Shown here in pieces: positions 1,608 to 41,961 of a stretch of 41,961 nt of DNA. Under the pieces are notes generated by a model. It searched no databases, was not told the origin of the DNA, and worked only from the letters and a program-made list of their open reading frames with translations. The DNA comes from Tubiluchus corallicola. Its lineage: Eukaryota; Animalia; Priapulida. Within the stretch, counting starts at the first letter, position 1, and the number at the start of each line of letters is the position of its first letter. Position numbers and translations under genes: made by a program. Where the stretch lies: the NCBI GenBank assembly GCA_030141605.1, contig JAQGDQ010001416.1, positions 1 through 41,961 on the forward strand, read 5' to 3'.

Positions 1608-1768
1608 TAGTAGGGGGATGCTTTCGGTACCAAAAGTATTGATATCAATTTTGGCACTTTACATCCAATATTTCTAATCTTTGTGCTACTTTGTTGTTTG
1701 CTCGCCCTGCTAATCTGAGAAATTGTAGTGTTTCAATAATATACCTTTCTGTGTTTATTCTCGTTCAG

Positions 1769-1945
1769 GTGTTTGACGTCCGTTTAAATAACGTGGACGT
1801 CGTCTCCGATCTTGACATATTCAAAGAAGTGGGCCGAGGTGTCGCACATGACGAAATCATCGAATTCAAGGTGTCCAAGGGAAAGCTTCTTTTAGATGAC
1901 GATCAGATGCCATTTAATGGCGATTTAAAAGTTGAGTTTGTTAAG
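1769..1945 (+). CDS. MLEC: malectin, internal coding exon (177 nt, phase 0/0)
   Basis: TTCAG acceptor and GTAAG donor. Encodes VFDVRLNNVDVVSDLDIFKEVGRGVAHDEIIEF...KVEFVK, matching the malectin motif VFDVxLN..DLDIF..VG...AHDEII. Confidence 0.93.
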
Positions 1946-3139
1946 GTAAGAAGTCTGAAATATCGTAGCTGTAATTGTTTTATAACATTTGTAAGGATTT
2001 CAAATATTGTTTATGATTGTTATGCAACGATTCACATTTCAATCTTTTGTCACTAATGGCTGAAATGTTTACTATTTTACTATTGTTTTGTTTGTTTTAT
2101 ATTTTTTCTTTTGTTATTGCTTTATTTTGATCATTTTATTTAAGTAATTAACAAAAATTGCATCTAGTGTCATCAATTTTTTTCTGCTGTTACAATGTTA
2201 ATTTATAAGGGGTGAGTGACTAGATGACCTACGGTCTTTCCTCGCCCCATGTCCATGGGTAAAGTAAAGCTTTTTTGTAAAATGGAAATTTGTGATACAA
2301 TATTGGAGAAAATAAGTGTCTGTGTCCAATAATTCTTCAAGTAAGTTAAGTAATACTTGAACATACTTGTAGTCATGGAAACACTGTCTACAGAGGTTAA
2401 TACCACTGAATGCTTTATTGTAACATAATCAGCACAGAAATGTCTCACATATCCCATAAAGTGGATTAACCTGACTGTTCAGAGCACAGGTGAGTAAAAC
2501 AGACAGGTAACAAACTGAAAAAAAACTGACCAAAACCAAAAGCTTTACATTCCCGCCACAGATGGCGCCTCATGCACGAATTTGTAAGATCAACAAAAAA
2601 AGCTAAGTCTGCTACAATACTCATGATCTTAGTTTTTGCTCAATTTTTGTAAATATGTAAATTTCGTAAACAACCTCTTTGTTTTGTAGTTTTGTTAATT
2701 TGCAGTAATTTTATAATTATGTTTTTTTCATAATACTGTTTGTAGATAACGCTATTACTAGTTAGGCGCATATGTTGTGTATGATTGACCGGTATGCTGC
2801 CTCCGGTACGCAGTATTCATTTCTTATGCGCAATGTATTTTTGCTTCGTATACATAAGTTTTTAATTGGGAGATAAACAGTTTATCTATCTATCTACTTC
2901 AACATTTCAAGTAAAACTTTTTTAACAATTGTTAAGTTGTCGCGATTCCTGTAAAATATACATGTGTATATTGGACGTTAAAGTTTTGTCTACTCTTCAG
3001 TTTTGGGTCAGAACTGTACTTTTAAAATGTAATAGCATCATAAATATGATTACTCTCTGGGAACAGTGTAGTGGCGCTACCACTGCAGTTACTCTTTTAA
3101 AAAGTGGTTGTTGCAATTCTAGTTAATTGCTGAATGAAA

Positions 3140-3257
3140 CTACGGCCAAATCACGTTGAAAACACCGGTTCTCATCTGATCACCGAAGTTAAGCAACGTA
3201 GAACCTGGTTAGTACTTGGATAGGTGACCGCCTAGGAATACCAGGTGCTGTAGGCTT
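3140..3257 (+). pseudogene. 5S rRNA-derived head of the SINE
   Basis: CTACGGCCAAATCACGTTGAAAACACCGGTTCTC...GAAGTTAAGCAACG...TTAGTACTTGGATAGGTGACCGCCTAGGAATACCAGGTGCTGTAGGCTT is a near-complete metazoan 5S with several substitutions. Confidence 0.9.
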
Positions 3258-3710
3258 GCGGGATGCCCACACTGTATCTCGACACTAGGCGGAGGAGCTG
3301 CACAAGCAGCCAACGGCTAGAGGGCGGAGGAGGTCAAGTGACCCAACGGCCATGTGTAGAGGAGTAAACCTTCCAAATCAGGAGTGGAGCCCCGAAAGCG
3401 GACCAGTGCAGCACGCTCACTGACTCCAGCAGCTCCTGCAGCCAACCTGGTGCCAAACGTATCGCTCCGCTTTCCTTTGGACTACACCAGCGAGGAAGAG
3501 AGGTGGTTCCTGTTGTCTGGGCAACTCAGGATCTCCATACACCTTGCCCAGGCGTGCGCCCTGGAGAGGCCACTCCAGTGGTTCAAGGATCGGATTGCTC
3601 AGCCACAGTCGACGCTGCAGCTCCATCAATGTGATCAATTACTGACTCTCTTGGTGCACACTCCATTGTCTTCCGAGGCAGAAGGATGCCAACAACAACA
3701 ACAACAACAA
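3140..3710 (+). mobile_element. 5S rRNA-derived SINE (SINE3), full length, with RTE-derived body and (CAA)n tail
   Basis: 5S head at 3140-3257 without an oligo-T terminator, ~430-bp body, (CAA)7 tail, and 10-bp TSD CTGAATGAAA at 3130-3139 and 3711-3720. A second copy of the body is at 32331-32683. Confidence 0.9.
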
Positions 3711-4215
3711 CTGAATGAAAGTGATGCCACTACTTTCCCATTTTGCATCAACTTCTGTCTTTTGAGTATCGTTGATGTAATGCAGTGCAAAGTGTAGATT
3801 TCATGTTTTAAGAGCTAGTTAACAATCATAATTAAATTGTTATTAACATGTTTATTTACTTTAAAAATCAATGGTTTAAAGTTGTTGTCACTAAGCAACA
3901 ACTGTTCACTTTTGGGTGGTATGTGTTTTCCAAGAGAAGATTCAGAAGTAACAATGACCAGCAAGGCACATGGCGCATTAAAGTGTTGCCTCGCTGTGCA
4001 TGAGTTCATTACAACTACAAGTACACAATTAACTAAACCCGTGCAACTCTTCAGCTACTATGAAAACAACATGGAGACATTAGCTGTCTACCTCTAGAAC
4101 TAAATGCAGTGCATAGTACTGTTACAGCGCTACTTAAAAAAGTAGTGAAATTACAATTTACCACTATTTATTTTCAAAGTAGTGACCCTACTCCATTGCT
4201 ACTAATTTTTGTTGT

Positions 4216-4653
4216 GCTATGTAGTGGCAGTACAGTAGCTACTTGAGCTATTTAGTGGTAGTACAGTAGCTACTTGAGCTATGTAGTGGTAGTACAGTAG
4301 CTACTTGAGCTATGTAGTGGTAGTACAGTAGCTACTTGAGCTATGTAGTGGTAGTACAGTAGCTACTTGAGCTATGTAGTGGCAGTACAGTAGCTACTTG
4401 AGCTATTTAGTGGTAGTACAGTAGCTACTTGAGCTATGTAGTGGTAGTACAGTAGTTACTTGAGCTATTTAGTGGTAGTACAGTAGCTACTTGAGCTATG
4501 TAGTGGTAGTACAGTAGCTACTTGAGCTATGTAGTGGTAGTACAGTAGCTACTTGAGCTATTTAGTGGTAGTACAGTAGCTACTTGAGCTATGTAGTGGT
4601 AGTACAGTAGTTACTTGAGCTATGTAGTGGTAGTACAGTAGCTACTTGAGCTA
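4216..4653. repeat. 31-bp tandem minisatellite (~14 copies)
   Basis: Unit GCTATGTAGTGGTAGTACAGTAGCTACTTGA. Confidence 0.95.
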
Positions 4654-4948
4654 CTTTCCAATGTAGTGCTTTTTTGTAATCAATGATGTAAATTGTAAAA
4701 TAGATGCAGATTAAAGAAAGAGGTTTTAATCCTCTGAGGTTACAGTGGTATTTGCTCTAAATGCCATAATGAAAAAAGGCGTGCTATGTACTGTACCAAT
4801 GCTGATTTGCTACGGCTGCTGTAGGTCAGCGCTCAGTGAAATAGTGCTTAATGTTGGTGATACTCTAGATATAACACTGATTTTATTTCACAATGTATTA
4901 TAAGAACTGTTTAAGTAAACTGCAATCAAACTCCACGTTCTTTTCCAG

Positions 4949-5006
4949 ACGGACAGAGACAATCCCAAAGTAAATGCAGTTTACGTCATGAAGGGAACGA
5001 AAGATG
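4949..5006 (+). CDS. MLEC: malectin, short coding exon (58 nt, phase 0/1)
   Basis: TTTTCCAG acceptor and GTAAG donor. Encodes TDRDNPKVNAVYVMKGTKD (malectin DNPKV motif) and joins both neighbouring exons in frame. Not in the ORF track. Confidence 0.92.
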
Positions 5007-5049
5007 GTAAGTTATTCAAATTGCTGAATAAAGTTAGGACTCCATGAGT

Positions 5050-5440
5050 GCGTAATGCGTGACCCGTAACCCGTAATGCGTGACCCGTAACCCCTAATGT
5101 GTGACCCGTAACCCTTAATGTGTGACCCGTAACCCCTAATGCGTGACTCGTAACCTCTAATGTGTGACCTGTAACCCCTAATGTGTGACCCATAACCCCT
5201 AATGTGTGACCCGTAACCCCTAATGTGTGATTTGTTATCACATAATATGTGAACTGTAATCTGTAATATGTGATCGGTAACCCGTAGTGTGTGATCCATA
5301 TTCCATAATGTGTGATCCATGTTCGATAATGCATGACCCGTAATCCGTTATGTGCGATCCGTGATCCGTAATGTGTAATCCATATTCCGTAATGCGTGGC
5401 CGTAATCCGTAATGTCTAATGTGTAATCCGTGATCCATAA
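5050..5440. repeat. degenerate 21-bp minisatellite
   Basis: Unit approximately GTGACCCGTAACCCCTAATGT, decaying to the right. Confidence 0.85.
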
Positions 5441-6326
5441 TGCATGCAAGTTGACCGTTTCCATGTGTCCACACAGGTTGTGTGTTTTAACAAAATTGCG
5501 ATGCTCTTTCCGCCATTTTGGCTACTGTTCGTGAAAATTGGCAGTAATAGTTTTTGGAAGCCGTGTTTCTGTCGAAATTCCAGCACTACAGCGATCAAGA
5601 TTTAATCACAGCGGTGGTCATTTTTGACAGTTTTCTGACCGTAGCTGATAATTTTTCTGTTAGACACGAAAATTCAAAGGGAAGCCGCAGGTTTTGGATG
5701 CATGCTGCAAATGCAATTAGCCTTTTGCAAATGTAATTACACTCATATCTCTCTTTGCCAGACAAAAATGGGAAGATGTTGGTCCGAATTTGCCGACTGT
5801 CCGTATTTGCCGATACTAAGCTAAATATAGCAGTCGCCGTGTATTAGACTCGCAATTAATGTAGAATCAATCGCCTAATTGCCTCAAAAACGTCTAGTAT
5901 GGGCCACTCCTATGCAAAAGTATATAAAAACTATTGGCAGTTGATTCAAATAACTCTGCATTATTGACTCTAAACCACTTACACATGCTGATTAAACCAT
6001 TAAAGATGCTGACATACAGGCTGCACACGTGTCCATACATGCTGATTTGATGTAAACAAAGTGACGGCCTGCCAGCTAGCGGTCAGCTCGCTAAATAACA
6101 AACTGTGTCCGTAGTATGCCGGACTTTCTATGGACCAGATTTTGTCCGTTGTTGCCGGTATCAGCAAAAGTGAGGACCGGCAAACCGAGATATGAGTAAA
6201 AACTCTTCTGCAAAAACTCAAATGGAAGAAATATTACTGTGTTCAGGTCCTGAATTGACCAAAACTCACCTGACCAGGAAGCCAGTCAGAGAAAATGGTC
6301 ATCGGAAGCTTTAAAACTCACTAAAT

Positions 6327-6786
6327 CACCTAGGCAATGACATTTGTTGTGTGATGCATATTTGAACGATAGTGATCACGTTCGATTGAGTATCATCTAG
6401 GCAATGACATTTGTTGTGTGATGCATATTTGAACGATAGTGATCACGTTCGATTGAGTATCACCTAGGCGATCACATTTGTTGTGTGATGCATATTTGAA
6501 CGATAGTGATCACATTCGACTGAGTATCACCTAGGCGATGACATTTGTTGTGTGATGCATATTTGAACGATAGTGATCACGTTCGATTGAGTATCATCTA
6601 GGCAATGACATTTGTTGTGTGATGCATATTTGAACGATAGTGATCACGTTCGATTGAGTATCATCTAGGCAATGACATTTGTTGTGTGATGCATATTTGA
6701 ACGATAGTGATCACGTTCGATTGAGTATCACCTAGGCGATCACATTTGTTGTGTGATGCATATTTGAACGATAGTGATCACCTAGG
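6327..6786. repeat. 67-bp tandem satellite, left part (~7 copies)
   Basis: Unit CACCTAGGCAATGACATTTGTTGTGTGATGCATATTTGAACGATAGTGATCACGTTCGATTGAGTAT. Confidence 0.95.
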
Positions 6787-7964: not shown

Positions 7965-8430
7965 CTAGGCAATGACATTTGTTGTGTGATGCATATTTGA
8001 ACGATAGTGATCACGTTCGTTTGAGTATCACCTAGGTAATGACATGTGTTGTGTGATGCATATTTGAACGATAGTGATCACGTTCGATTGAGTATCACCT
8101 AGGCAATGACATTTGTTGTGTGATGCATATTTGAACGATAGTGATCACGTTCGATTGAGTATCACCTAGGCAATGACATTTGTTGTGTGATGCATATTTG
8201 AACGATAGTGATCGCGTTCAATTGAGTATCACCTAGGCAATGACATTTGTTGTGTGATGCATATTTGAACGATAGCGATCACGTTCATTTGAGTATCACC
8301 TAGGCAATGACATTTGTTGTGTGATGCATATTTGAACGATAGTGATCACGTTCATTTGAGTATCACCTAGGCAATGACATTTGTTGTGTGATGCATATTT
8401 GAACGATAGCGATCACGTTCGATTGAGTAT
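7965..8430. repeat. 67-bp tandem satellite, right part (~7 copies)
   Basis: Same unit as 6327-6786. Confidence 0.95.
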
Positions 8431-12435: not shown

Positions 12436-12807
12436 TATAGGTTTTACACGTCAAATGTAGACCTACGTTAAGTCAAATGTAGATTTAGGTAATTCAAATG
12501 TGTCTTGGTAACTCAAATGTAGACTTAGGTGGTTCAAATGTGTTAACAATGGTTTTCAAGAAATCTTGAGCGTTTTTGGTAAGTCAAATGTAGACACATG
12601 TGAAGTCAAATGTCCTATGTCTACATTTGACTTACCTAAGTCACATTTGAGTTACCAAAAAACATTCAAAATTCCTGTGTCTACATTTGACTTACCTAAG
12701 TCACATTTGAGTTACCAAAACACATTCGAAATTCCTGTGTCTACATTTGACTTACCTAAGTCACATTTGAACTTTCCTGTGTCTACATTTGACGTGTAAA
12801 ACCTATA
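12436..12807. mobile_element. foldback-type MITE with perfect 27-bp TIRs and internal TCAAATGT sub-repeats
   Basis: TATAGGTTTTACACGTCAAATGTAGAC ... GTCTACATTTGACGTGTAAAACCTATA. The same family lies at the centre of the 39.6-42 kb foldback. Confidence 0.85.
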
Positions 12808-14204: not shown

Positions 14205-14950
14205 AAAAATCGTCGTCGTCTAGGTGCTGCTATGTTCTAAAACATGGAAAGTCCCACCTGTTGATGCCACGCATTCCTGTCCATCGCCACTGCCCACGAT
14301 GCATCACCCTCAAATCTAGATGTGCATTTGCTAAATCTTTTTACCCTATATCTGTATACGTCAGTAACTGACCCTCTCTCGGCCTTTTTGTCGTTTCAAG
14401 CCTTTTACGTAATGTTGTAGGAAGAGGAGATTCCTGAGATAATCTTCTTCTATTTGTTTACTCCAAGGATTCTTCTTAACCACTTCATACACATCATTAT
14501 TGGATATTTTTTCAGGCCACTTAATATCTAACAATTTTCTACAGAGACATCTTTGGAAAGCGTCAATTTCCTGTTTAACTTTTAGTGTCTATAGTTTAAC
14601 ATTGTATAAAAACACAGGTTCAACTAAGGGATCTAAAGGGATCTGACTTGGTTTCTAGAGAAAGTCTTTTGTTTTCGAATAAGTAGACAGTGCAAGAATT
14701 TTCCTTCCTTGTATGTCGGCTCTCGTGTCTAACAAGCTACCAGGGCATTTGTATCTTTTCCATGAATCATTACCTCCTCTTCGAATATGGTAGTCTTCCG
14801 TCTTTGTAATGTTGACTTTACGATTACATTTTTCTAAATGGCGGCTGATTGTACATTTTGCGTCTTGCTGTTCCTCTATGTTAGCTGTAATGTATGTAAC
14901 ATCATCTATGCCATTAATGTATGCATACATGAATTTTAGATCAGTCATCC
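14205..14950 (-). mobile_element. degraded RTE-like LINE relic (RT C-terminal region)
   Basis: Broken minus-strand translation contains NITKTE..WKRYKCPGSLLD..LVEPVFLYN..IDAFQRCLCRKLLDIKWP..AMDRNAW. A (GAC)n-like tail lies near 14210. Confidence 0.65.
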
Positions 14951-15010
14951 TCAGATTACCTCATCATAATTATCCAATATATAGAAAGCCTTGATATCTT
15001 TAGTTTAATA

Positions 15011-15434
15011 CAGGCATGTGCAAATTATCTCACTAGCCGGGCCACATTAAACTTTCCCGCAATTCTTGCTGGCCACAGGCAGTTTGGAAAGGGAGCCAAG
15101 TACAGTAGGACCTAATAACGATGTTTTTGCAACCGATTTGCGCACATCATTACTACTACACTAAGAAACTATTTTAGAAATTATTAAAATTTATATTAAA
15201 AACCATATATTTCGTCATGTCCGACAGTGACATTAAGTGACAACGGTCTTGTAAGGATTAATGTCATCCGATCTAGACGAAAAAACTACCCGCACTATCT
15301 TTGCGATATTGGCGCGGACTTCAGCTGGATCGCGTGGGCCGCACTTTCATTACCTTGACGAACCTCTTCGCGGGCCCCACAAAATCTCTCGACGGGGCGT
15401 AAGTGGCCCGCGGGCCGCAGTTTGCACACCCCTG
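15011..15434. mobile_element. hAT (Charlie-like) MITE
   Basis: TIRs CAGGCATGTGCAAA / TTTGCACACCCCTG, GGCCCGCGGGCC subterminal motifs, and 8-bp TSD GTTTAATA / GTTTAATG. Confidence 0.8.
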
Positions 15435-16170: not shown

Positions 16171-16659
16171 TGTAAAATTCATTTACGTTCTCTCTGTCTA
16201 CATTGCTGAATCATCTTGTATGTTCTAATTTCACCCCAGTTATTATCACATCTTCATATTTTTTTCCGAATGAAAATTTGTTATTGCGAACTTTTTTAAC
16301 CTTTGTATAAAGTTGACATTTTCTGAAAAGGAGAAAATTTTTGACCACGAAATGTCAAAGATTGTCATCCCTGTCAAAGATTGTAAAATATTAATTTTAT
16401 TGTCAATAAACCACCATTACCATTACTATTTCATCTCTCATGTTATCACGGAAAAGGTCCTGGCTTTTCTTCCTGTAACCACATTTCACTCGACCTGGAT
16501 TTACAAGAAACGTAGGTCACGCCTTGCTGGTCCCACTCTTGTCCTTCTGGATAGTGCATTATTGGGGTTCTTTACTGACTAACAAATCAATTATTGATTG
16601 AATAATTGAGAGAGTTATTTGATTGGCTAACTTTTCCACAGTTAGATCTAGCGCTTATG

Positions 16660-17001
16660 ATCCACAAAGAAGTGGTCAGACCCGCTCTAATCTATGGGCT
16701 GGAAGCAGCTTCTCTAAAGAAGACCGAAGAGAAGAAAATGGGTGTGGTGGAGACGAGGATGTTGAGATGGATGGTGGGAATAACAAGAAGAGATAAAATT
16801 AGAAATAATAATATCAGAGGAACAGTAAAAGTAGTGGAAGCCTCGCAAGATTGCGATGGTATGGACACCTGAAAAGAAGAGTCAGTGAAGATCATGTGGG
16901 AAGGGAAGACATAAATGAAGAAATGGTCAACAACAGGAATGCGTGGAGAAGACTCATTCACAACGGCGACCCCGAATAGGGAAAAGCTGGGAAGAAGAAG
17001 A
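16660..17001 (+). mobile_element. 5'-truncated RTE-clade LINE fragment
   Basis: Encodes VVRPALIYGLE..ETRMLRWMVGITRRDKIRN..IRG..RLRWYGH..RNAWRRLI. (GAA)n tail and 16-bp TSD AGATC(T/C)AGCGCTTATG at 16644-16659 and 17002-17017. Confidence 0.88.
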
Positions 17002-18999: not shown

Positions 19000-19960
19000 A
19001 AATTACATTAAGCAGTGTCAGCACATCAGTGACGGCCTTGAAATTGCATTAAGCAGTGTCAACACATCAGTGATAGCCTTGAAATTGCATTAAGCAGTGT
19101 CAGCACATCAGTGATAGCTATGAAATTGCATTAAGCAGTGTCAGCACATCAGTGATAGCCTTGAAATTGCGTTAAGCAGTGTCAGCACATCAGTGATAGC
19201 CATGAAATTGCATTAAGCAGTGTCAGCACATCAGTGATAGCTATGAAATTGCGTTCAGCAGTGTCAGCACATCAGTGATAGCTATGAAATTGCGTTCAGC
19301 AGTGTCAGCACATCAGTGATAGCTATGAAATTGCATTAAGCAGTGTCAGCACATCAGTGACGGCCTTGAAATTGCATTAAGCAGTGTCAACACATCAGTG
19401 ATAGCCTTGAAATTGCATTAAGCAGTGTCAGCACATCAGTGACGGCCTTGAAATTGCATTAAGCAGTGTCAGCACATCAGTGATAGCCTTGAAATTGCGT
19501 TAAGCAGTGTCAGCACATCAGTGATAGCCTTGAAATTGCATTAAGCAGTGTCAGCACATCAGTGATAGCCTTGAAATTGCATTAAGCAGTGTCAGCACAT
19601 CAGTGATGGCCTTGAAATTGCATTAAGCAGTGTCAGCACATCAGTGATAGTATGAAATTGCATTAAGCAGTGTCAGCACATCAGTGATAGCTATGAAATT
19701 GCATTAAGCAGTGTCAGCACATCAGTGATAGCCTTGAAATTGCGTTAAGCAGTGTCAGCACATCAGTGATAGCTATGAAATTGGCTTAAGCAGTGTCAGT
19801 ACATCAGTGATAGCCTCGAAATTACATTAAGCAGTGTCAGCACATCAGTGACGGCCATGAAATTACTTAAGCAGTGTCAGCACATCAGTGATAGCCTTGA
19901 AATTGCCTTAAGCAGTGTCAGCACATCAGTGATAGCCTTGAAATTACTTAAGCAATGTTA
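19000..19960. repeat. 41-bp tandem minisatellite (~23 copies)
   Basis: Unit CATTAAGCAGTGTCAGCACATCAGTGATAGCCTTGAAATTG. Confidence 0.95.
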
Positions 19961-20545
19961 ATACGTCAGTGATTGCGGAGTTTTCAAGTTACTAAAACAG
20001 TGTCAGTACATCAGCGATGCGCCTGAGATTACCGCATCATTGGATGTGTTAAATTTTGTTGCATGAAACAGGAAAAAGAATAAACATGTTTAAATATATG
20101 ATTAGAAAAAAAGAACAACCATGCATACATTAAACAAAAGAACATGCACATCAAAAATACCGTTTACAAAACAACCAATAATTATTGTATTGGTTAAATT
20201 AAATTATTACTTTGTTACACTTTTTTGGCAAATAGCCAGTGCCCACCATTGGCAGACAACTATTGCTGATGATTAATAACTAATATTTAAAACATTATTA
20301 ATTAGCAAGAACTTCTTGTGCACATTAAACACATTCTAAAACGTGTGGTTGTAGTGCAGCTAACCTATTATAATCAGACGAAATCTACCATTCTAAACAA
20401 ATAAACTCCTATGTTAATCTACAAGTTTGCATTCGTTTCTTTTGTTCATTTTCGTTGATATACATTCATTTTTTGTTTGTTTGTTTACTTGCCTGCTTCT
20501 TCCTCCTTCGCTTTGTTTTCGGTTTTATATTCTTTAGTCAAAAAG

Positions 20546-20781: not shown

Positions 20782-21168
20782 TCAAAGGTCGCGATTGCTA
20801 ATCCCGCCATGCAAGTAGTCCGGTTGAGCTGGTTCCTGCACAAACTGCTCTTTTGTTTCAAACAAAGGATTTGGTACCGAGATTGGTTCAAACGTGGGTT
20901 GGGCCATATATCGCTCATCACCAACAAAGCTGTCATCAAATGCACTGCCAGCAAACTGGTTGGCACCTTTTCCCATCGCACCATAACTGGTTAGTTTGCC
21001 AGTGTATTCGTCCGCCATTTGCGGTGGCTCAGGTCGCCAAGTATCCGGCTCGTGAGGCGGATCTGCCCAGGGTTGCTTTTCCCCAGAAGCAAATATGGCG
21101 TAAAACGTGACGCCAGCAAAGTGGATTAGACTGGCAATAAGGAAAACCTTTTCCCATTCTTTTGCAGT
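20782..21168 (-). CDS. VGLUT: vesicular glutamate transporter, terminal exon (387 nt)
   Basis: TTTCAG acceptor. Encodes [35 protein letters not shown]...ISNRDL*; [14 protein letters not shown] is VGLUT-typical. Confidence 0.93.
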
Positions 21169-21266
21169 CTGAAACAGATTAAAGAAAGAAACGTATTAGA
21201 CAGCAATAACGAGGAAACATTCACTAAAGTTTTGCACTATCATATGAGATTTGCTAAGAATATTAA

Positions 21267-21722
21267 CCCTTTTGGACACGTTGTATCCCGTGGGATACGA
21301 GAATATTTTCTGCCTTTAAAATTAATAAAATTTTAAAACGACAGTTATTTGATCTGTTAGTAGTTATTTTGATTTAAGCCAATAACAATAGACTAAAAAT
21401 GGTGATAAAATGGCAAACTAGAAAATCTACATAGCATAAAAAACTGTGCAAGGTACAGTACTTTAGAGACGACTTTGTACAGATCAGCATAGCATGCATA
21501 CTAAATGTCTTAAATACTTTGAGAAATTATCAGCAATTGCAAAATGAAGCACATTTTATGCTTCCATTGAATGCCAATGTATCCCGTGGGATACAGGCTA
21601 TATTTAGCACGCAGGCACAAATAGAAAAAAAATTATTATGTGTAAACAAGATGGACATACTGAATTAAAGTACCAAGCCAAAAAATATTTTCTTATTAAA
21701 AAATAATTTGGGACTGAAAGGG
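21267..21722 (+). mobile_element. piggyBac-like MITE (456 bp), copy A
   Basis: TTAA|CCCTTT ... AAAGGG|TTAA, with the internal palindrome GTATCCCGTGGGATAC twice. Confidence 0.85.
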
Positions 21723-22164
21723 TTAACGACTCTGGAGTATGCAGAAGCAGCGTCAGCACATCAGAATACCCATAAAATTAATCTAAGCAGAGATAGCACA
21801 TTATTGATTCACTAAATTTATTTTAAGTTGTGTTAGTAAATCTCTGATACGCTCAAAATTATCTTATAGCAGTGCGAGCTAAAGTTAGCACATTAGTCAC
21901 ACATTTGGCAGCAGTTGTAGAAGTTCTTTACGAAATGTGAGCTTGACCTCTCCCTGAAGAATCCATTTAACACTGCGTAAAACTGTTTATACTTTAAGAC
22001 TTTTTAACTCCTTAAACTTTTTAAGACTTCGGGGAAAGATTAGCGTACTATGTAGTAAGTTGAACATATCTCGGACAGAAATAAATTTTTCGGAAAACGA
22101 AAGTCTGCTGACCACTTTTCCTGAGCAAGACGATCAAAATCTCAATAATTTTTATGAAAATCTT

Positions 22165-23711: not shown

Positions 23712-25340
23712 AAATGCTCTCAAGTAAACAAGCTCACAATCAGAAATGCTCTCAAGTAAAAGAGCTCACAATCAGAAATGCTCTCAAGTAAACAAGCTCA
23801 CAATCAGAAATGCTCTCAAGTAAACAAGCTCAAAACCAGAAATGCTCTCAAGTAAAAGAGCTCACAATCAGAAATGCTCTCAAGTAAACAAGCTCAAAAT
23901 CAGAAATGCTCTCAAGTAAACAAGCTCACAATCAGAAATGCTCTCAAGTAAACGAGCTCAAAATCAGAAATGCTCTCAAGTAAACAAGCTCACAATCAGA
24001 AATGCTCTCAAGTAAAAGAGCTCAAAATCAGAAAAAGCTTTCAAGTAAACAAGCTCAAAACCAGAAATGCTCTCAAGTAAACAAGCTCAAAACCAGAAAT
24101 GCTCTCAAGTAAAAGAGCTCAAAATCAAAAATGCTCTCAAGTAAACAAGCTCAAAACCAGAAATGCTCTCAAGTAAAAGAGCTCAAAATCAGAAAAAGCT
24201 TTCAAGTAAACGAGCTCACAATCAGAAATGCTCTCAAGTAAAAGAGCTCAAAATCAGAAAAGCTTTCAAGTAAACGAGCTCACAATCAGAAATGCTCTCA
24301 AGTAAACAAGCTCAAAATCAGAAATGCTCTCAAGTACACGAGCTCACAATCAGAAATGCTCTCAAGTAAACGAGCTCACAATCAGAAATGCTCTCAAGTA
24401 AACAAGCTCAAAATCAGAAATGCTCTCAAGTACACGAGCTCACAATCAGAAATGCTCTCAAGTACACGAGCTCACAATCAGAAATGCTCTCAAGTAAACA
24501 AGCTCACAATCAGAAATGCTCTCAAGTAAACAAGCTCACAATCAGAAATGCTCTCAAGTAAACAAGCTCACAATCAGAAATGCTCTCAAGTAAACGAGCT
24601 CACAATCAGAAATGCTCTCAAGTAAAAGAGCTCACAATCAGAAATGCTCTCAAGTAAACAAGCTCAAAATCAGAAATGCTCTCAAGTAAACAAGCTCAAA
24701 ATCAGAAATGCTCTCAAGTAAACAAGCTCACAATCAGAAATGCTCTCAAGTACACGAGCTCACAATCAGAAATGCTCTCAAGTACACGAGCTCACAATCA
24801 GAAATGCTCTCAAGTAAACAAGCTCACAATCAGAAATGCTCTCAAGTAAACAAGCTCAAAATCAGAAATGCTCTCAAGTAAACAAGCTCAAAATCAGAAA
24901 TGCTCTCAAGTAAACGAGCTCACAATCAGAAATGCTCTCAAGTAAACAAGCTCACAATCAGAAATGCTCTCAAGTACACGAGCTCACAATCAGAAATGCT
25001 CTCAAGTAAACAAGCTCAAAATCAGAAATGCTCTCAAGTAAACAAGCTCACAATCAGAAATGCTCTCAAGTACACGAGCTCACAATCAGAAATGCTCTCA
25101 AGTACACGAGCTCACAATCAGAAATGCTCTCAAGTAAACAAGCTCAAAATCAGAAATGCTCTCAAGTAAACAAGCTCACAATCAGAAATGCTCTCAAGTA
25201 CACGAGCTCACAATCAGAAATGCTCTCAAGTAAACAAGCTCAAAATCAGAAATGCTCTCAAGTACACGAGCTCAAAATCAGAAATGCTCTCAAGTAAACG
25301 AGCTCACAATCAGAAATGCTCTCAAGTAAACAAGCTTAAA
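23712..25340. repeat. 32-bp tandem minisatellite (~50 copies)
   Basis: Unit AAATGCTCTCAAGTAAACAAGCTCACAATCAG. Confidence 0.97.
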
Positions 25341-26914: not shown

Positions 26915-27476
26915 CTGAAAAGAAAGAAAAACGTGGGTTACCAAAATGTATAGTTCTACAATTATTTTTTACCACATTATATTCTTATGATTGATGGTGT
27001 TGTTTGGAAGAAGGTATCTTAATTTGATAAGAAGCACAAATACTAATGAAGTAATGAAAAGTGACATTTTGTTGTTACAAAACATCATGATTCAGTAATT
27101 ATTTAACATACTGCTTATTTCCAGGTATGAGTCAATAAAAAAGTCAATGAATGTGATTTATTCAACCAAAGTAATGTGCAGCAAGTAAAACTTTCTTGTT
27201 AGTAGAAAACGTTGATTTCATCGACAACTTTAAAACTCAACAATTTCACTTCAATTATTCATTCTGCAACATCATTTTTTAAATTTTCAAATAATTCAAG
27301 TTTAACAACAACCGAATTTACACCGTTCAATCAACTTTTTTCATTTCCAACAGAATGTCAAAAATATAGATCACTAGAAGACTGTCTATAAAAATACAAG
27401 AGTATGGCTTCACGATGGGTGTGATCATTCGCGTTGCTATTCAGGCGCAATGTATATCCTTTCATTAATTTTTTAA

Positions 27477-27932
27477 CCCTTTCAGTCCCAAATTATTTTT
27501 TTAATAAGAATTTTTTTTGTCTTGGTACTTTTGTTCAGTATATCCATCTTGTTTACACATAATAATCATTTTTTCTACCTGTGCCCGCGTGCTAAATATA
27601 GCCTGTATCCCACGGGATACATTGGGATTCAATGGAAGCGTAAAATGTGCTTCATTTTGCAACTGTTGATAATTTTTCAAAGTATTTAAGACATTTAGTA
27701 TGCACGCTATGCTGATCTGTACAAAGTCGTCTTTAAAGTACTGTACCTTGCGCAGTTTTTATGCTATGTAGATTTTCTAGTTTGCCATTTTATCACCATT
27801 TTTAGTCTATTGTTATTGGCTTAAATCAAAATAACTATTAACAGATCAAATAACTGTCAGTTTTAAAATTTTGTTAATTTTAAACGCAGAAAATATTCTC
27901 GTATCCCACGGGATACAACGGGTATGAAAGGA
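27477..27932 (-). mobile_element. piggyBac-like MITE (456 bp), copy B, inverted relative to copy A
   Basis: TTAA flanks at 27473-27476 and 27933-27936. Reverse complement of 21267-21722 with scattered substitutions. Confidence 0.85.
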
Positions 27933-28546
27933 TTAAATAACATGTTTAAGGTGGCAACATTGTCCCTTAACTTTAGACGCACAAGCAAAACTATGTAGCA
28001 AACTACAAACTCGAAGTGTATGACTACATAGTTCCACTTATGACAATCGGAATGATTACATTCTATTTAATGTAAAATGCAATTGTGTATAATGTAAAAT
28101 AAATATGTCTATTAATCAATAATTTGTATTTCATTTCGACTGTAAATATTTTCGCGATTCTTTGTAATTTGTCGTCCAACCGAACTAAAGTCATTTTCTT
28201 CTGAACATGTCAGATCTAATGTACCATAGTGACGATTGCTTCGGGCCAGTTTTTTTCTAGGTACACCTATTTACATCATGCATTCGAGCGTGTAGGTAGA
28301 ACCTCGCCTTTGTTCATTTTCCCAGATAAGGCCATAAATGACAAGTCGCAATAAGTCCCCAAAATCGCCCGAGGGTCGTGGTAATGAGAAGTCTAGACGC
28401 TAGACTTTTGCGGTATACGCATGGTCAAATTCTTTTACCGGTCACGCGTTGTTAAGTTGCTGCCATAAAGCGTCTCCGTCCCAGCTTATTCCGGGTTGCA
28501 GCGAAAGCTGAGAATAACTTGAAAGATTGTCGCCGTCAACGCCACC

Positions 28547-29479
28547 ATGAAGGAGATAATTTTAGCCGTCGTCTACGTGTTTTTAACGATTCTTGGCCTC
28601 ACTGGCAATAGTTTGGTCATTTTTCTTGTTGCTAAGAGCGCCAGACTCCGCAACAGTACCAACATTCTAATCCTCAATTTGGCTGTCGCTGACCTGCTCT
28701 TTGTCGTCTTCTGTGTGCCCCTGGATGGAGTTTACATGGTCATGGGCTCATGGCCCTTCAGTGTGCCAGCTTGCAAGATGATGAACTATTTCATTATTGT
28801 GTCGATATTTGTCAGCATTTATACGCTGGTTATCATTTCATTTGAGAGACTTCTTCTGACGAAGCATTCATCCGGAAGGAAACGGCTTCAGTATTACCGT
28901 GTGCTGTTGCCATTATTGTGGATGGTTGCCTTTGCCGTCAGCATTTGTGGACTTTTAAATTCTGTGGTTTTTCGTGTGGCTGATCAAAGAGTTTGCTTTT
29001 TTGGGACAAAACAGTACGGTTGGATACTCATATTTGTGTTTGGATACCTTCTACCGCTGCTGACATCTGGTGTCGCATACGCTCTACTGTTTAAATTCAT
29101 TCTGCATCAGCGCCGCGTGGTGGACGACAGCAAACAACTGGACAAAATTAAGTCAACCACAGGTACCATTGCTGTTGTAATCATTGCATTTGCCATATGC
29201 TGGCTTCCTTACCACATTGTCATGCTTGACTCGACAGTAGGGAATGCCACCATACAGATGAGCATTCATGCTACATGGATTGTACCATCAGTAACCTGCC
29301 TTGCGTATTTTAATTCCTGTATTAATCCAGTTCTATATGGATTTCTCATGCCAGAATTTAGAAAAGAAATGTGGCGCATGCTCCACAAGACAAAGAATGT
29401 GGATGGCAGCAAGGTATCAACTATTAAAACTTTTGATACAGATTATGATCTTGAAAACAAAGGCTGTCCACAAAAGTAA
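28547..29479 (+). CDS. intronless class A GPCR, galanin/allatostatin-A receptor-like, 310 aa, nested antisense in a VGLUT intron
   Basis: Seven hydrophobic segments with motifs GN (TM1), NLAVADLLF (TM2), WPF..C, ERL at the DRY position, CWLPYH (TM6) and NSCINPVLY (TM7). GCCACCATG Kozak context, upstream in-frame TGA at 28520-28522, AATAAA at 29751-29756. Confidence 0.92.
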   Translation: MKEIILAVVYVFLTILGLTGNSLVIFLVAKSARLRNSTNILILNLAVADLLFVVFCVPLDGVYMVMGSWPFSVPACKMMNYFIIVSIFVSIYTLVIISFERLLLTKHSSGRKRLQYYRVLLPLLWMVAFAVSICGLLNSVVFRVADQRVCFFGTKQYGWILIFVFGYLLPLLTSGVAYALLFKFILHQRRVVDDSKQLDKIKSTTGTIAVVIIAFAICWLPYHIVMLDSTVGNATIQMSIHATWIVPSVTCLAYFNSCINPVLYGFLMPEFRKEMWRMLHKTKNVDGSKVSTIKTFDTDYDLENKGCPQK

Positions 29480-30430: not shown

Positions 30431-32309
30431 TGCCAGATCATTTGGTGTGGTACTTTTATCAATTCTTTGGAGTCCCAATGTGTGTCACACTCTCTAGTGT
30501 TGCTTTGTGTGACTTTGGCCAGTATACATTGCTTGACATTACATTAAATATCATATTTTTTGGTGTCACTTTGTGCGTCAAATTGTTTGATGTTGCATTG
30601 TATCTCACATTGTTGTTAATTAAATTTACAAGTCACAAGAAACGTGTAGTTCTTCGAAATACCCCAAGAACGCTGAACTCGCATTCCTTTTCTAATTTCT
30701 TTGCGTATTTTAATTGACTTTCTTTTGTAAAGCTGTGGAGGCGCCATTGTGAGACGTTTTAAGCTTAACCCGTGTTTAATTCTGCGAAAAATCTAACATG
30801 TTATGTTTGTTTAGCAACATAAATTTTACAGCCATGTTATTATGATCATAGACATAAACGATTATAATATACAATTATACTGGCAGGCGTGTATTGAAGA
30901 TCGCTTGTATAGCCTACAGCTGTGCACACGTCCGGTTATTGAAACTCACGGTAACGTTAGCTAATAAACATTGATTGTACAAGGTAATCTGGAAAAACCA
31001 TCGCTGAACGCTGGGATTTCTATGTATTGGACTGCTGTCCGCTTTTAACGGAGGCAGGGCGGATGCCACCGCGGCCACCACCGTGCGGCATGTCCCAATT
31101 AAGTCCTTCAACACCAAACCAAAACAGAACCCGAATAATAGAGTCGAAATGACAATTTTATTACTACATATCACACCCCCAATAAGGAACAAACAGTTTA
31201 CCTAGAAGAACGGAGTTTGCGGCAAAGCCTGTGAAATGTGAACAGAGCTGCAATGAAAGACACGACCACTGACAAGGGTCTACAGCAGACCTTCCCTCTT
31301 TATAAGCTCAGGTGTGCACGTGACTAGTGGCTTTTGCTAACACAAGGTCAGAATACGAGTCTGTGCTAGATAAAGCCACGTTCACACGCACACCTGAGAA
31401 GTCTACTGTATTCCCTGCCAGCATTACACTTCATCTCTTCACAGCCCTGTAGTACAGCATGCAGACTAGTTGTGGCAGGACCAAAATCTATTTGATTGCT
31501 GAAGATTGCTTGCTAAGCACCCATCATGACTGCTCAGCTACTTCCTCGCACAAAAAGTGTGAAAAGGTGAAATCAAGTTCAAAAATAATCCAAGGTTTTT
31601 CTTTTCTTGCAAAGTTCTGAGGAAACTTAGAACAGCTGAGCAAAATTAGTAACTGAAGTTTACAAATGTGTGCTGATCTTTCTGTTTCTGACAGATTTCT
31701 AGTTTCATTGCAATAAGCTACTTCTGCATTATACAGGAGGGTTGGTGTGTCAAGGGTAGGTTGAAGCAGTCCTTACTGTCTAAAGGGTTAAGGGTTTATG
31801 AGGAACTAGGTTAAAACGAACCATGGGCATCTTTTGCACTGAAAATGACTCAGTGATGAACAGTTTATTGCAGGGGAGAATTAGTCGCAAAGCTGATGGT
31901 TGAAAGTAAATTTTTGCTTTATTTGGAGTAAATAAAAAAGTACTGGCCTTTAACTATACTCTGCTATAACAAATCTTTTTAATACTGAAATATTTTATTA
32001 TAGTTTTTCCGTACAAAGTCTATTGGAGCTAGTTGGTTTGCTCTTTTTCAACCTGTCCATTTTACCAATCATTTTAATCACGATTGCGATTTTGACGATT
32101 TAAGCTACTAACTCCTCACTCGTCAGCAATTATCATTAAACTTCAACCTTCGACAACCTGTTATTAAAGTTTGATTAAAATTTGTTATAAGAGCTAAACT
32201 TCAATAATTCAATACAATATAAATGCAATTCTGCAATTCTTGAACATCTGCCATGATTTATTTGTGTGCTGGTTTCTTTCTATAATTATGTATACTATTA
32301 ATCTAAGTT

Positions 32310-32683
32310 AGGTGAACCATGGTCTACCATGGTCAAGTGAACCAATGGTCATGTGTAGAGGAGTAAACCTTCCAAATCAGGAGTGGAGCCCCGAAGGTGG
32401 ACCAGTGCAGCATGTTCACTGACTCCGGCAGCTCCTGCAGCCAACCTGGTGCCAAACGTATCGCTCCGCTTTCCTTTGGACTACACGAGGGAGGAAGAGA
32501 GGGGGTTCCTGTTGTCTGGGCAACTCAGGATCTCCATACACCTTGCCCAGGCGTGCACCCTGGAGACATTCAAGGATCGCACTGCTCAGCCACAGTCGAC
32601 GCTGCAGCTCCATCAATGTGATCAATAACTGACTCTCTTGGCGCACACTCCATTGTCTTCCGAGACAGAAGGATGCCAACAAG
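32310..32683 (+). mobile_element. 5'-truncated copy of the 5S-SINE body
   Basis: 32331-32683 matches ~3331-3695 closely. 11-bp TSD TAATCTAAGTT at 32299-32309 and 32684-32694. Confidence 0.9.
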
Positions 32684-32819
32684 TAATCTAAGTTCATTGA
32701 AAAAAATCTTGCCATGTAACTGGGTGTAAGTACTACCAGGGTTTCAACTTGTCCCAGCCTGTGTTACAACATACCCCCACCTGGAAGATTTTTTTGTTGA
32801 TATCTCAAAGGCTTTGTAA

Positions 32820-33345
32820 CCCCTTACCTTACCTTAGACCTTAGTCCTTCCTGTGCGGATGCACATTGGGCAAACAGCATTTTCCACTGGGTTCTATCGG
32901 CGGCTTCTCTTTCGATGTTCTCCCAAAGTCTGTTCATAGCCCGAAGGTCTTCTTTGAAAGATCTGCGCCACGTTGTTTTTCCTTTTTCCACCAGGTGGTT
33001 CCCAGCGTAACGCTATTTTGGAGTGGCGTTGTTCTGGTAGGCGTAGAATATATCCAGCCAATCTCAGCCTTCTCTCTGCGACTATTTCCTGAGTTAGTTT
33101 GATATCGCTGCTGTGACTTTCCAGGTTTCGCTGGCATAAAGAGCCATTGGCAGCACAATGGTATTGTACAAACGAAGCCTGATTTTCAGGTCAATTTTCT
33201 TGCTTGCCCAGATTTTTCCCATCTTCCTAAATGCTGCTGCTGCTTTGTCAATTCTCACCCTGACGTCTCTTTCTGCGCCTCCATCACAACTTCATCACAC
33301 TGCCAAGATATGAGAAGCTGGCAACGTTCTCAATCAGTTGTCACC
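32820..33345 (-). mobile_element. degraded RTE LINE 3' fragment
   Basis: Minus strand encodes IENVASFSYLGS..DGGAERDVRVRIDKAAAAFRKMGKIW..RLYNTIVLPMALYASETWK. Short-repeat tail (TAAGG-like) near 32820-32845. Confidence 0.8.
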
Positions 33346-39594: not shown

Positions 39595-39872
39595 CTGTTT
39601 ACAAAAATATAAATACGTACATATATAACACTACAAAACATACACTACGTTACTAACAACACAATGATACAAGTTAAATTCAATAATTAAAACTAAATAC
39701 AAAACATCAAACTTTGCTGTATAGTCCCTATACTATAACATAGATATACATATATTTACGGTAGTTACGTAGACATGATTATAGTATTTAATTTACATAA
39801 ACGATCCTAGTTTTATATATATATAAAACTAGGATTGATATATACATATTTTATATATCAATATAAAACTAT

Positions 39873-39903
<31 letters not shown>

Positions 39904-39932
39904 AAAACGACCTATATGTATGTATATATCTA

Positions 39933-39970
<38 letters not shown>

Positions 39971-41570
39971 CATATAGGTCGTTTTTTAAATTTATAAAAC
40001 AAATTTTGTATAGCATTTGAACCAAAAATTACAAACAAATTTGAGAATTTCTAAATCGAAAATTTTAGCTTGACATCGTCTGATAAGTAAGTAAAGTTAG
40101 AATATGTATATAGAGACTGCCCCTGTATAAAGTTGTTTCTTGGTTGTTCACATCTACTAAAGTGTAAGAGCAAGTAGCGATTATGTTTTAAAATGAAAAA
40201 AAGTCACATGTTTTTAACAAATTTACACGAACATGTGCAGCGTGCCGATCAACCTCCGCGAAACATCAGTATCTACATGTCAAATGTAGACCGCGTTAAC
40301 TCAAATGTAGATTTAGAAGTAACTCAAATGTGACTTAGGTAAGTCAAATGTAGACGCAGGAAAGTTCAAATGTGACTTTGGTAAGTCAAATGTACACATA
40401 GGAATGTCGAATGTGTTTTGGTATCTCAAATGTGACTTAGGTAAGTCAAATGTAGATGCGGTACTTTGAATAAATCGATAATTAACTCATTTAAGTGCAA
40501 ATTAGAAAAAGATAAAACCAAATTAAAATTATATTTTATGGTCATGGTGCTATCGGCAGCATCAATTTTCATTATATTTAATTAATTTGCAACAATTTGT
40601 GTGGACGTTAATACATTTTTCAAATATAAAGAAAATGTTTATTTGATAGTTTTAAGTAATGCATTAGCACTGCATTAATGAATTAGTTTCTCTTAAGAAA
40701 CATTGTTTATTTTAAGAATGTATTGTTTTCTCTAACAGTTCCAATGGTATGTAAAGTTTGCAGAACATTAGTGAACCTATAACGTTGTTATTTTAACTTA
40801 AGACCAATTATTAAATTGAAATTAAAGAAGATTAAATTTAACATCCTTAAACTTTACCACCTATCCACATTTGAGATACCAATGTCACATTTGACTTGAC
40901 ATGTGTCTACATTTGAACTTACCAAAAACGCTTAAGTTTTCTTGAAAACCATTGTTAACACATTTGAACTACCTAAGTCTACATTTGAGTTACCAAGACA
41001 GATTTGAACTACCTAAGTCTACATTTGAGTTACCAAGACAGATTTGAACTACCTAAGTCTACATTTGAGTTACCAAGACAGATTTGAATTACCTAAATCT
41101 ACATTTGAGTTACCAAGACAGATTTGAATTACCTAAATCTACATTTGAGTTACCAAGACACATTTGAATTACCTAAATCTACATTTGAGTTAACAAGACA
41201 CATTTGAATTACCTAAATCTACATTTGAGTTAACACAGGTCTACATTTGACATGTAGATACTGATAAGTTTCGCGGAGGTTGATCGGCACGCGTTGCACA
41301 TGTTCGTGTAAATTTGTTAAAAACATGTGACTTTTTTTCATTTTAAAACATAATACGCATTTGCTCTTACACTTTAGTAGATGTGAACAACCAAGAAACA
41401 ACTTTTATACAGGGGTCAGTTCTATATACATATTCTAACTTTACTTACTTATCAGACGATGTCAAGCTAAAATTTTCGATTTAGAAATTCTCAAATTTGT
41501 TTGTAATTTTTGGTTCAAAATGCTACATAAAATTTGTTTTATAAATTTAAAAAACGACCTATATTTATGT

Positions 41571-41619
<49 letters not shown>

Positions 41620-41648
41620 TAGATATATACATACATATAGGTCGTTTT

Positions 41649-41686
<38 letters not shown>

Positions 41687-41961
41687 GTTTTATATTGATA
41701 TATAAAATATGTATATATCAATCCTAGTTTTATATATATATAAAACTAGGATCGTTTATGTAAATTAAATACTATAATCATGTCTACGTAACTACCGTAA
41801 ATATATGTATATCTATGTTATAGTATAGGGACTATACAGCAAAGTTTGATGTTTTGTATTTAGTTTTAATTATTGAATTTAACTTGTATCATTGTGTTGT
41901 TAGTAACGTAGTGTATGTTTTGTAGTGTTATATATGTACGTATTTATATTTTTGTAAACAG
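39595..41961. repeat. large inverted repeat / foldback (arms >=720 bp, ~900-bp spacer)
   Basis: 39595-~40316 is the reverse complement of ~41213-41961 and runs off the window. The spacer contains the 12436-12807 MITE family and a 40-bp tandem array at ~40960-41230. Confidence 0.9.

What the first reader, a model, noticed from the sequence alone, without database searches (positions are those of the whole stretch)
3130..3720. 5S-rRNA-headed SINE with an RTE-LINE-derived body, mobilised at least twice
Seen: a near-complete 5S rRNA (3140-3257) lacks its T-run terminator and is fused to a ~430-bp body with no TTTT, a (CAA)7 tail and a perfect 10-bp TSD. The distal body still translates as SRIGLLSHSRRCSS (3583 onward). 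Established: 5S-derived SINEs (SINE3) are much rarer than tRNA SINEs, and RTE-mobilised SINEs often have bipartite bodies made of LINE 5'UTR plus 3' end (springhare Ped-1 is a 5S example). Inference: the peptide resembles the C-terminal Cys/His motif of RTE-clade ORFs, and the proximal body resembles an RTE 5'UTR, both from memory. This would be a possibly undescribed invertebrate SINE3 using the Pol III type-1 promoter and parasitising an RTE LINE.
Basis: partly seen in the sequence, partly recalled or inferred. Interest (0 to 1): 0.85.

Follow-up and report, generated by a model that had tools for sequence, protein, structure and literature searches.

The report
5S-headed SINE built from RTE ends
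This is one copy of an abundant short jumping repeat in an invertebrate genome, made of a 5S ribosomal RNA head joined to the front and back ends of an RTE-type retrotransposon; it is likely copied by that retrotransposon's enzyme, the design is already known from other animals, and the head sits where a related retrotransposon's predicted self-cleaving RNA ends.

Summary
Observation confirmed and extended. Window 3139-3710 is a 5S rRNA head (Rfam, 101.9 bits), a 433-bp body, a (CAA)7 tail and a 9-10-bp target duplication. A 5'-truncated copy at 32.3 kb has its own 11-bp duplication.

It is a family, not a one-off chimera. In two public runs from different studies, contig depth runs unbroken across the head-body joint, thousands of times above the flanks, and 138 and 41 contigs start at the head with unrelated flanks.

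The body is bipartite. 3262-3580 matches the 5'UTR (83%) and 3581-3690 the ORF end and 3'UTR (74%) of one intact 1048-aa endonuclease-RT element (L001); 3.4 kb between are missing. A covarying 3' hairpin is kept. The head joins within about 4 nt of where L001's predicted HDV-like ribozyme ends, as Kojima (2018) argued RTE-derived SINE bodies should.

The architecture is known (Ped-1, CoeSINE5, SINE-1_Pmo, insect HaSE3), and this scan noted similar elements in other genomes. Pol III transcription, the host's own full RTE and catalogue status (Dfam, Repbase) are untested. Verdict: a new member of a known kind.

The parts
3130..3139 (+). Left target-site duplication (10 bp; the last base may be the element's first base, making it 9 bp)
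   Evidence: null 4 of 5000; contig exits peak at 3139
3139..3257 (+). 5S rRNA-derived head with type-1 Pol III promoter boxes (A about 3187-3201, IE about 3204-3209, C about 3217-3234, by recalled numbering); no T-run terminator
   Evidence: Rfam RF00001, 101.9 bits; boxes printed; this copy differs from the contig majority at 3174, 3203 and 3222
3258..3580 (+). RTE 5'UTR-derived body, starting at about the 3' end of the related RTE's predicted HDV-like ribozyme
   Evidence: 3262-3580 = L001 2035-2357, 83% over 323 columns; 29 of 82 RTE loci match this part; predicted ribozyme in L001 ends at 2030-2032
3581..3689 (+). RTE 3' end: last ORF codons (Cys/His motif remnant, 3583-3624) and 3'UTR with a 4-bp hairpin at 3668-3679
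   Evidence: 3581-3690 = L001 5771-5872, 74%; 13 of 14 aa match the P0124 C-terminus; hairpin covariation
3690..3710 (+). (CAA)7 tail
   Evidence: RTE loci L012, L056 and L078 also end in CAA-type repeats
3711..3720 (+). Right target-site duplication
3741..3744 (+). First flanking TTTT, predicted Pol III stop for this copy
   Evidence: inferred function
32299..32694 (+). Second copy, 5'-truncated, of the 12-nt-deletion subfamily: TSD 32299-32309, 21 extra nt, body 32331-32682, short CAA tail, TSD 32684-32694
   Evidence: the same deletion appears as loose ends in 42 and 27 X1 contigs

Best explanation
The element is a full-length copy of a high-copy repeat family made of a 5S rRNA head, an RTE-type 5'UTR segment and the same RTE's 3' end; it is likely transcribed by Pol III from the head and likely reverse-transcribed into new sites by the host's RTE protein. 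Origin (inferred): an internal deletion of about 3.4 kb joined the RTE's two ends, and a template switch put a 5S rRNA in front, at the point where the RTE's 5' HDV-like ribozyme ends, so the RNA would not cleave off its own promoter. Mobilisation (inferred from known RTE SINEs): the RTE endonuclease-RT would bind the retained 3' hairpin and CAA tail and insert copies by target-primed reverse transcription, leaving 9-11-bp duplications and frequent 5' truncations. Shown here: anatomy, TSDs, family status, bipartite homology, a conserved hairpin and pieces of a matching RTE in the same runs. Not shown: transcription, the host's whole RTE, ribozyme activity.
For: Family. X1: 17342 contigs laid, summed depth 0.9-2.4 million over head and body against 167-180 on single-copy flank. 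X3 (another study): 1684 contigs, 26-145 thousand against 41. The tool warns that summed depth is no copy number; I use it only as an order of magnitude. Depth has no step at 3257/3258. 7 of the 16 listed pieces have >=31 nt on both sides of that joint, each with 5-20 differences from the window copy. 138 X1 and 41 X3 contigs leave the element at 3138-3140 into unrelated flanks (agreement 0.40-0.49). RTE origin. Both body halves match L001, whose intact 1048-aa ORF carries EEP and RVT_1 domains. 25 of 29 5'UTR matches end at 3574-3583; there are no minus-strand hits. 58 of 76 full-length relatives match the window peptide at >=10 of 14 residues at their C-terminus, against 4-6 of 14 at best elsewhere in the same ORFs. 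Matching RTE in the runs. 7 X1 and 4 X3 contigs leave at 3580, and 1 X3 contig enters at 3583. By eye, the X3 exit matches L001's continuation at 20 of 30 positions in register, and the entering letters add the missing cysteines of the motif. Hairpin. 98.4% of cells paired, 3 of 4 pairs with two-sided changes, 0 of 500 shuffles reach the covariation score. Ribozyme. A complete HDV-like fold is found in L001 (1856 to 2030-2032) and, with different paired letters, in L004. Controls: first descriptor 0 of 35, 0 of 36 and 0 of 180; second descriptor 0 of 35, 0 of 36 and 1 of 360.
Against: No RNA evidence was obtained. The host's full RTE was not recovered: L001 is a relative from another sample (83% and 74% identical), so the ribozyme-end joint is read from a relative. 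No listed loose end shows the host RTE upstream of 3258 (12 of 143 rows shown). Rfam has no family hit on L001's 5' region. The descriptors found a fold in only 3 and 2 of 36 upstream regions, and the core in 4 of 23, where L034 and L054 lack an adjacent P2. Run X5, with the same species label as X1, holds only 5S-like and flank fragments and no body. X1 may be the window's own source. The 5'-flank contigs are not individually shown to carry the body. RTE clade was assigned by architecture, not by a tree. The hairpin was read off these same sequences and only loci with a motif anchor were aligned (16 of 29), which favours it.
Confidence: 0.88

Rival explanations
1. A one-off or rare chimeric retrocopy: an RT switched from a non-autonomous RTE RNA to cellular 5S rRNA during this single insertion.
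For: A headless body exists in the window (copy 2), and 7 X1 contigs start at 3259 with unrelated flanks. P0121 looks like a headless bipartite derivative of the same RTE family in another sample.
Against: Depth is continuous over the joint and divergent bridging contigs occur in two studies. Head-start contigs outnumber 3259-start contigs 138 to 7 in X1. The A at 3149, where the Rfam consensus has U, also appears in the loose-end consensus of both runs, pointing to a family master rather than fresh 5S.
Confidence: 0.03
2. The family is real, but it moves as a Pol II-transcribed non-autonomous LINE (from read-through transcripts); the 5S head is a passenger, not the promoter.
For: No transcript data. 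Type-1 promoters are thought to depend on upstream signals and to be weak after retroposition (passages in PMC3272025 and PMC8010984). This copy has a change in box C at 3222.
Against: 5' ends cluster within 3 nt of the 5S start, as expected for an internal Pol III promoter. The contig majority has G at 3222. The ribozyme that would trim a read-through transcript is absent from the element.
Confidence: 0.07
3. The partner is not an RTE-clade LINE but another single-ORF endonuclease-RT clade.
For: No reference tree was built; Pfam and Atlas give only generic EEP and RVT_1 labels.
Against: A single ORF of about 1045 aa with APE and RT, a short 3'UTR and a simple-repeat tail fits the RTE description in PMC2887409. 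Several relatives are named 'craniofacial development protein 2-like', a name I recall as deriving from a BovB/RTE endonuclease.
Confidence: 0.04

Closest known systems
Ped-1 (springhare), CoeSINE5 (coelacanth), SINE-1_Pmo (python): 5S head plus bipartite RTE body (Kojima 2018, PMC5786205; Ped-1's 5S head per PMC3272025 and PMC8010984 passages)
   Same: 5S-derived head, RTE 5'UTR piece that is not the extreme 5' end, RTE 3' end, microsatellite tail (CoeSINE5 also ends in CAA repeats).
   Different: Longer (572 nt against 225-241 nt for CoeSINE5 and SINE-1_Pmo), with a 323-nt 5'UTR piece and the last ORF codons retained. Four short body motifs were absent from that paper's supplement, which suggests an independent origin from another RTE subfamily.
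HaSE3 (Helicoverpa armigera), PxSE4/PxSE5 and SINE3-1_TC: insect SINE3 families (PMC3272025, PMC8010984)
   Same: Invertebrate 5S-headed SINEs; HaSE3 shares its 3' end with HaRTE1 and carries an RTE 5'UTR piece.
   Different: HaSE3 is low-copy and arose by a head swap on a tRNA SINE. PxSE4's head is about 63% identical to 5S. Here the head is a near-intact 5S, the body is wholly RTE-derived, and no tRNA-headed sister was seen among the listed loose ends.
Bipartite non-autonomous RTEs (RTESINE1/2, WALLSI3, Bov-A, RTE-N2_Lch; PMC5786205)
   Same: Internal-deletion derivatives with only the 5' and 3' ends; P0121 appears to be one from this RTE family.
   Different: They usually keep the LINE's own 5' end; this element has replaced it with 5S.
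RTE family of P0122, P0124 and L001 (cluster includes Pocillopora verrucosa XP_058971727.1)
   Same: Source family of both body halves.
   Different: Autonomous, about 4.0 kb, with a predicted 5' HDV-like ribozyme; from other samples, so not the host's own driver.

Membership tests
SINE (SINEBase criteria, PMC3531059) | Short (<1 kb; <700 bp), interspersed, non-tandem | tested here: met
   572 nt; unrelated flanks; two dispersed copies in the window
SINE (SINEBase criteria) | [quoted passage not shown] | tested here: met
   138 X1 contigs with unrelated 5' flanks; depth ratio about 10^3 to 10^4. Indirect: no assembly was available
SINE3 | >=60% identity to 5S rRNA over >=60 nt at the 5' end | tested here: met
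   RF00001 full-length, 101.9 bits
SINE3 | Boxes A, IE and C present | tested here: met
   (positions by recalled numbering); one copy-specific change in box C
SINE3 | Transcribed by Pol III from the internal promoter | not testable with these tools
   no RNA holder listed
SINE3, as against a 5S pseudogene | Extra body sequence shared among copies | tested here: met
   continuous depth and bridging contigs
RTE-mobilised bipartite SINE | [quoted passage not shown] | tested here: met
   L001, 83% and 74%
RTE-mobilised bipartite SINE | Partner LINE present in the same genome | tested here: inconclusive
   only loose ends of about 30 nt at 3580 and 3583; the three LINE fragments in the window are unrelated or distant
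RTE clade (partner) | Single ORF with APE and RT, short 3'UTR, simple-repeat tail | tested here: met
   description in PMC2887409
RTE clade (partner) | RT phylogeny groups with RTE references | not tested
   no named reference sequences were among my tool results
RTE-type insertion signature (PMC6007223) | TSD starts with T about 10 nt after a T stretch, or its first base matches the tail repeat | tested here: inconclusive
   TSD 1 starts with C (continuing the CAA tail), TSD 2 with T; no T5 stretch upstream of either; n = 2
An already catalogued family (Dfam, Repbase, SINEBase) | Consensus match | not testable with these tools
   databases not held; SINEBase supplement unreadable

The most novel reading that the evidence does not exclude
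An undescribed, young SINE3 with thousands of copies, in an animal group for which my searches found no SINE3 (other notes of this scan suggest a priapulid), born by swapping the RTE's 5' self-cleaving ribozyme for a 5S promoter almost to the nucleotide. It would be a directly testable case of the proposal that RTE-derived SINE bodies must shed the ribozyme, and of a type-1 promoter succeeding at dispersed sites.
Probability: 0.45. Interest if true: 0.55.

Novelty: new member of a known kind. Interest (0 to 1): 0.38.

Why it matters
It adds an independent origin of the 5S-plus-bipartite-RTE design outside vertebrates and insects, with both junctions mappable on an intact relative. If the head-body joint also sits at the ribozyme end in the host's own RTE, it turns Kojima's suggestion about ribozyme loss into a simple experiment. 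A very abundant SINE3 also bears on the view that type-1 promoters work poorly after retroposition. Practically, such copies inflate 5S rDNA counts and produce false protein calls.

Tried and rejected
No whole genome is held, so copies were counted from run contigs. An exact 21-nt 3' motif found 0 matches in metagenome contigs. No RNA holder was listed, and X6 laid 0 contigs; neither is evidence on expression. No tRNA gene in the window, and no Rfam hit above chance in the body.

An HDV-like fold inside the SINE using a 5S-derived P1 appeared with a loose, uncontrolled descriptor (5 overlapping hits) and vanished with the controlled ones: rejected. Lack of TTTT as evidence of selection: rejected. 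My first idea that the body starts at the RTE's extreme 5' end: rejected, since L001 and P0121 share sequence upstream of the joint.

Host clade could not be fixed: GPCR hits are at most 36% identical among the top full-length hits and span insects, oyster and fish; the Atlas gave no useful hit; a 5S motif was in no paper. My recalled impression of a molluscan 5S is not supported by any search. Viral contigs gave no RTE relative; the two genome-contig hits are short contigs, likely eukaryotic contamination. None of the 82 loci holds a 5S head. P0245 among the representative hits is a chance match to a Cys/Trp repeat. No look-alike among earlier findings by sequence.

Literature searches that found no description of this family: (listings; open-access library only); one search found no paper for the CFDP2 name.

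Full report
Observation. Window 3138-3256 matches Rfam 5S rRNA over the whole model (101.9 bits, E 2.4e-21). It runs without a T-run into a 57% GC body, a (CAA)7 tail (3690-3710) and a repeat of the 10 bp that precede the head. With tandem arrays masked, 4 of 5000 random site pairs share >=10 bp (170 of 5000 unmasked). The lack of TTTT is not informative (6363 of 10000 shuffles). A second copy at 32331-32682 is 92% identical to 3332-3695, lacks the head, has a 12-nt deletion and has its own 11-bp duplication.

Family status. No assembly is held, so I laid public run contigs on the locus. Six runs were listed and four laid. X1 (possibly the window's source) laid 17342 contigs and X3 (another study) 1684. 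Summed depth over head and body is 0.9-2.4 million against 167-180 on single-copy flank in X1, and 26-145 thousand against 41 in X3. The tool states that this is no copy number; I take it only as an order of magnitude (10^3-10^4). At 3138-3140, 138 X1 and 41 X3 contigs continue into mutually unrelated, AT-rich flanks (15 of 429 loose-end rows shown). In a second lay on 3170-3340, depth passes the head-body joint without a step, and 7 of the 16 listed pieces carry >=31 nt on both sides, with 5-20 differences each. Most contigs are >=95% alike (12576 of 17342 in X1), so the family is fairly young. The 12-nt deletion of copy 2 marks a subfamily (42 and 27 contigs). Against: X5, with the same species label as X1, holds only 5S-like and flank fragments, and X6 holds nothing. 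I cannot say whether this reflects a loose label, a related species or filtering.

Origin of the body. A search with a non-coding frame of the body found three proteins among 52 candidates. P0122 is an endonuclease protein whose called ORF runs into its own 5'UTR and matches 3352-3585 at 77%. Its full-length relative P0124 (1048 aa, EEP and RVT_1) ends in a motif matching window 3583-3624 at 13 of 14 residues. 58 of 76 full-length relatives reach >=10 of 14 at the C-terminus, while the best match elsewhere in those ORFs is 4-6. DNA of 82 related loci was fetched and 30 match the body. L001, with an intact ORF at 2680-5826, matches both halves: 3262-3580 to 2035-2357 (83%) and 3581-3690 to 5771-5872 (74%), with 3413 nt missing between. 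25 of the 29 5'UTR matches stop at 3574-3583. Contigs in X1 and X3 leave the element at 3580 (7 and 4) and one enters at 3583. By eye, the X3 letters resemble L001's continuation (20 of 30, and 17 of 28, in register); this is the only sign of the host's own RTE. The X1 exit consensus is mixed (agreement 0.55). A 4-bp hairpin just before the tail is kept in both window copies and covaries across 16 RTE loci (98.4% of cells paired, 3 of 4 pairs with two-sided changes, 0 of 500 shuffles). 13 of 29 loci had no anchor and were left out, L004 was re-anchored by hand, and the structure was read from these sequences. The RTE label rests on architecture (PMC2887409, passages) and a recalled protein name, not on a tree.

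The 5' joint. L001 begins at about 1856 with a predicted HDV-like ribozyme: a 7-bp P1, a 9-11-bp P2, P3/L3, and a candidate catalytic C at 2016, ending at 2030-2032. Window 3258 corresponds to about L001 2031, so the 5S head is attached within about 4 nt of the ribozyme's end. L004 has the same fold with different paired letters; L034 and L054 have the core only. The descriptors hit 3 and 2 of 36 upstream regions, against 0 of 251 and 1 of 431 control sequences. Rfam has no matching family. Kojima 2018 (PMC5786205, parts 1-4 of 5 read, plus supplement passages) notes that RTE pieces in SINEs are often not the extreme 5' end and suggests that a ribozyme would cut off the head; PMC6765202 (passages) states that RTEs carry HDV-like ribozymes. 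This element fits that idea, but through a relative that is 83% identical. Seven X1 contigs start at 3259 with unrelated flanks; they may be truncations at the base of the 5S helix or a small headless family.

Mechanism. Shown: anatomy, TSDs, family status, bipartite homology, hairpin conservation. Inferred: Pol III transcription from boxes A, IE and C (the contig majority has G at 3222 where this copy has A, so this copy may be silent), termination at the first flanking T-run (3741), and RTE-driven target-primed reverse transcription. Confidence 0.88. Rivals: one-off chimera 0.03, Pol II passenger head 0.07, non-RTE partner 0.04.

Comparison. The design is known: Ped-1, CoeSINE5, SINE-1_Pmo and HaSE3. 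Insect SINE3 families are described in PMC3272025, PMC8010984 and PMC10886601 (passages). Passages of PMC4758252 and PMC4824008 on molluscan SINEs showed no molluscan 5S-headed family. PMC6007223 (passages) gave the insertion signature, inconclusive here with two sites. PMC3531059 (passages; supplement unreadable) gave the SINE criteria; its family table, and Dfam and Repbase, could hold this family and were not seen. Searches did not find it described. Earlier notes report 5S+RTE SINEs in planarians and 5S+Rex1 SINEs in fish genomes (unchecked).

Verdict. A real, abundant, probably undescribed SINE3 family of a known architecture. Interest 0.38; the ribozyme-end joint is the part worth a follow-up.

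Noticed in passing
window 28523-29479 (+): Intronless rhodopsin-family GPCR (PF00001, E 1e-47); best hits are allatostatin-A/galanin-receptor-like at only 30-36% identity.
   Followed up: partly
window 20782-21195 (-): Open frame that by eye resembles the C-terminal exon of a vesicular glutamate/SLC17 transporter; no Pfam or useful Atlas hit.
   Followed up: partly
window 1643-2056 (+): Open frame that by eye contains a PTEN/tensin C2-like stretch; the SINE may lie in an intron of this gene.
   Followed up: no
window 39595-40451 and 41082-41961; related pieces at 12445-12800: Long inverted repeat (93% over about 880 bp) with internal 20-42-bp minisatellites, running off the window end; foldback-like element, with a dispersed relative.
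   Followed up: no
window 21263-21726 and 27473-27936: Two inverted copies of a 465-bp repeat, 93% identical.
   Followed up: no
window about 14650-15270 (-), 16650-16950 (+), 32790-33260 (-): Three decayed LINE RT fragments; none matches the SINE body.
   Followed up: partly
window 3147-3254 (table 5c): A minor variant in X1 in which the 5S head is followed by a second 5S head (depth 893).
   Followed up: no
window 32310-32330: 21 extra nt between copy 2's left TSD and its body; by eye a near-duplicate of the adjacent body sequence, as from repeated priming or slippage at the 5' junction.
   Followed up: no
P0124 family: RTE proteins 70-80% or more identical occur in a coral, a gastropod, a stomatopod, a shrimp and a sea urchin, which may reflect horizontal transfer; not tested.
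   Followed up: no
L034 about 2001-2055, L054 about 386-440: HDV-like core whose P2 partner seems displaced by an insertion after the catalytic motif.
   Followed up: no
L081, L082: RTE fragments on short contigs of two bacterial assemblies, likely eukaryotic contamination.
   Followed up: no
window 6325-6781 and 7965-8430; 4212-4653; 19000-19973; 23712-25336: Homogeneous minisatellite arrays (67, 31, 41 and 32 bp); the 67-bp array occurs twice.
   Followed up: no
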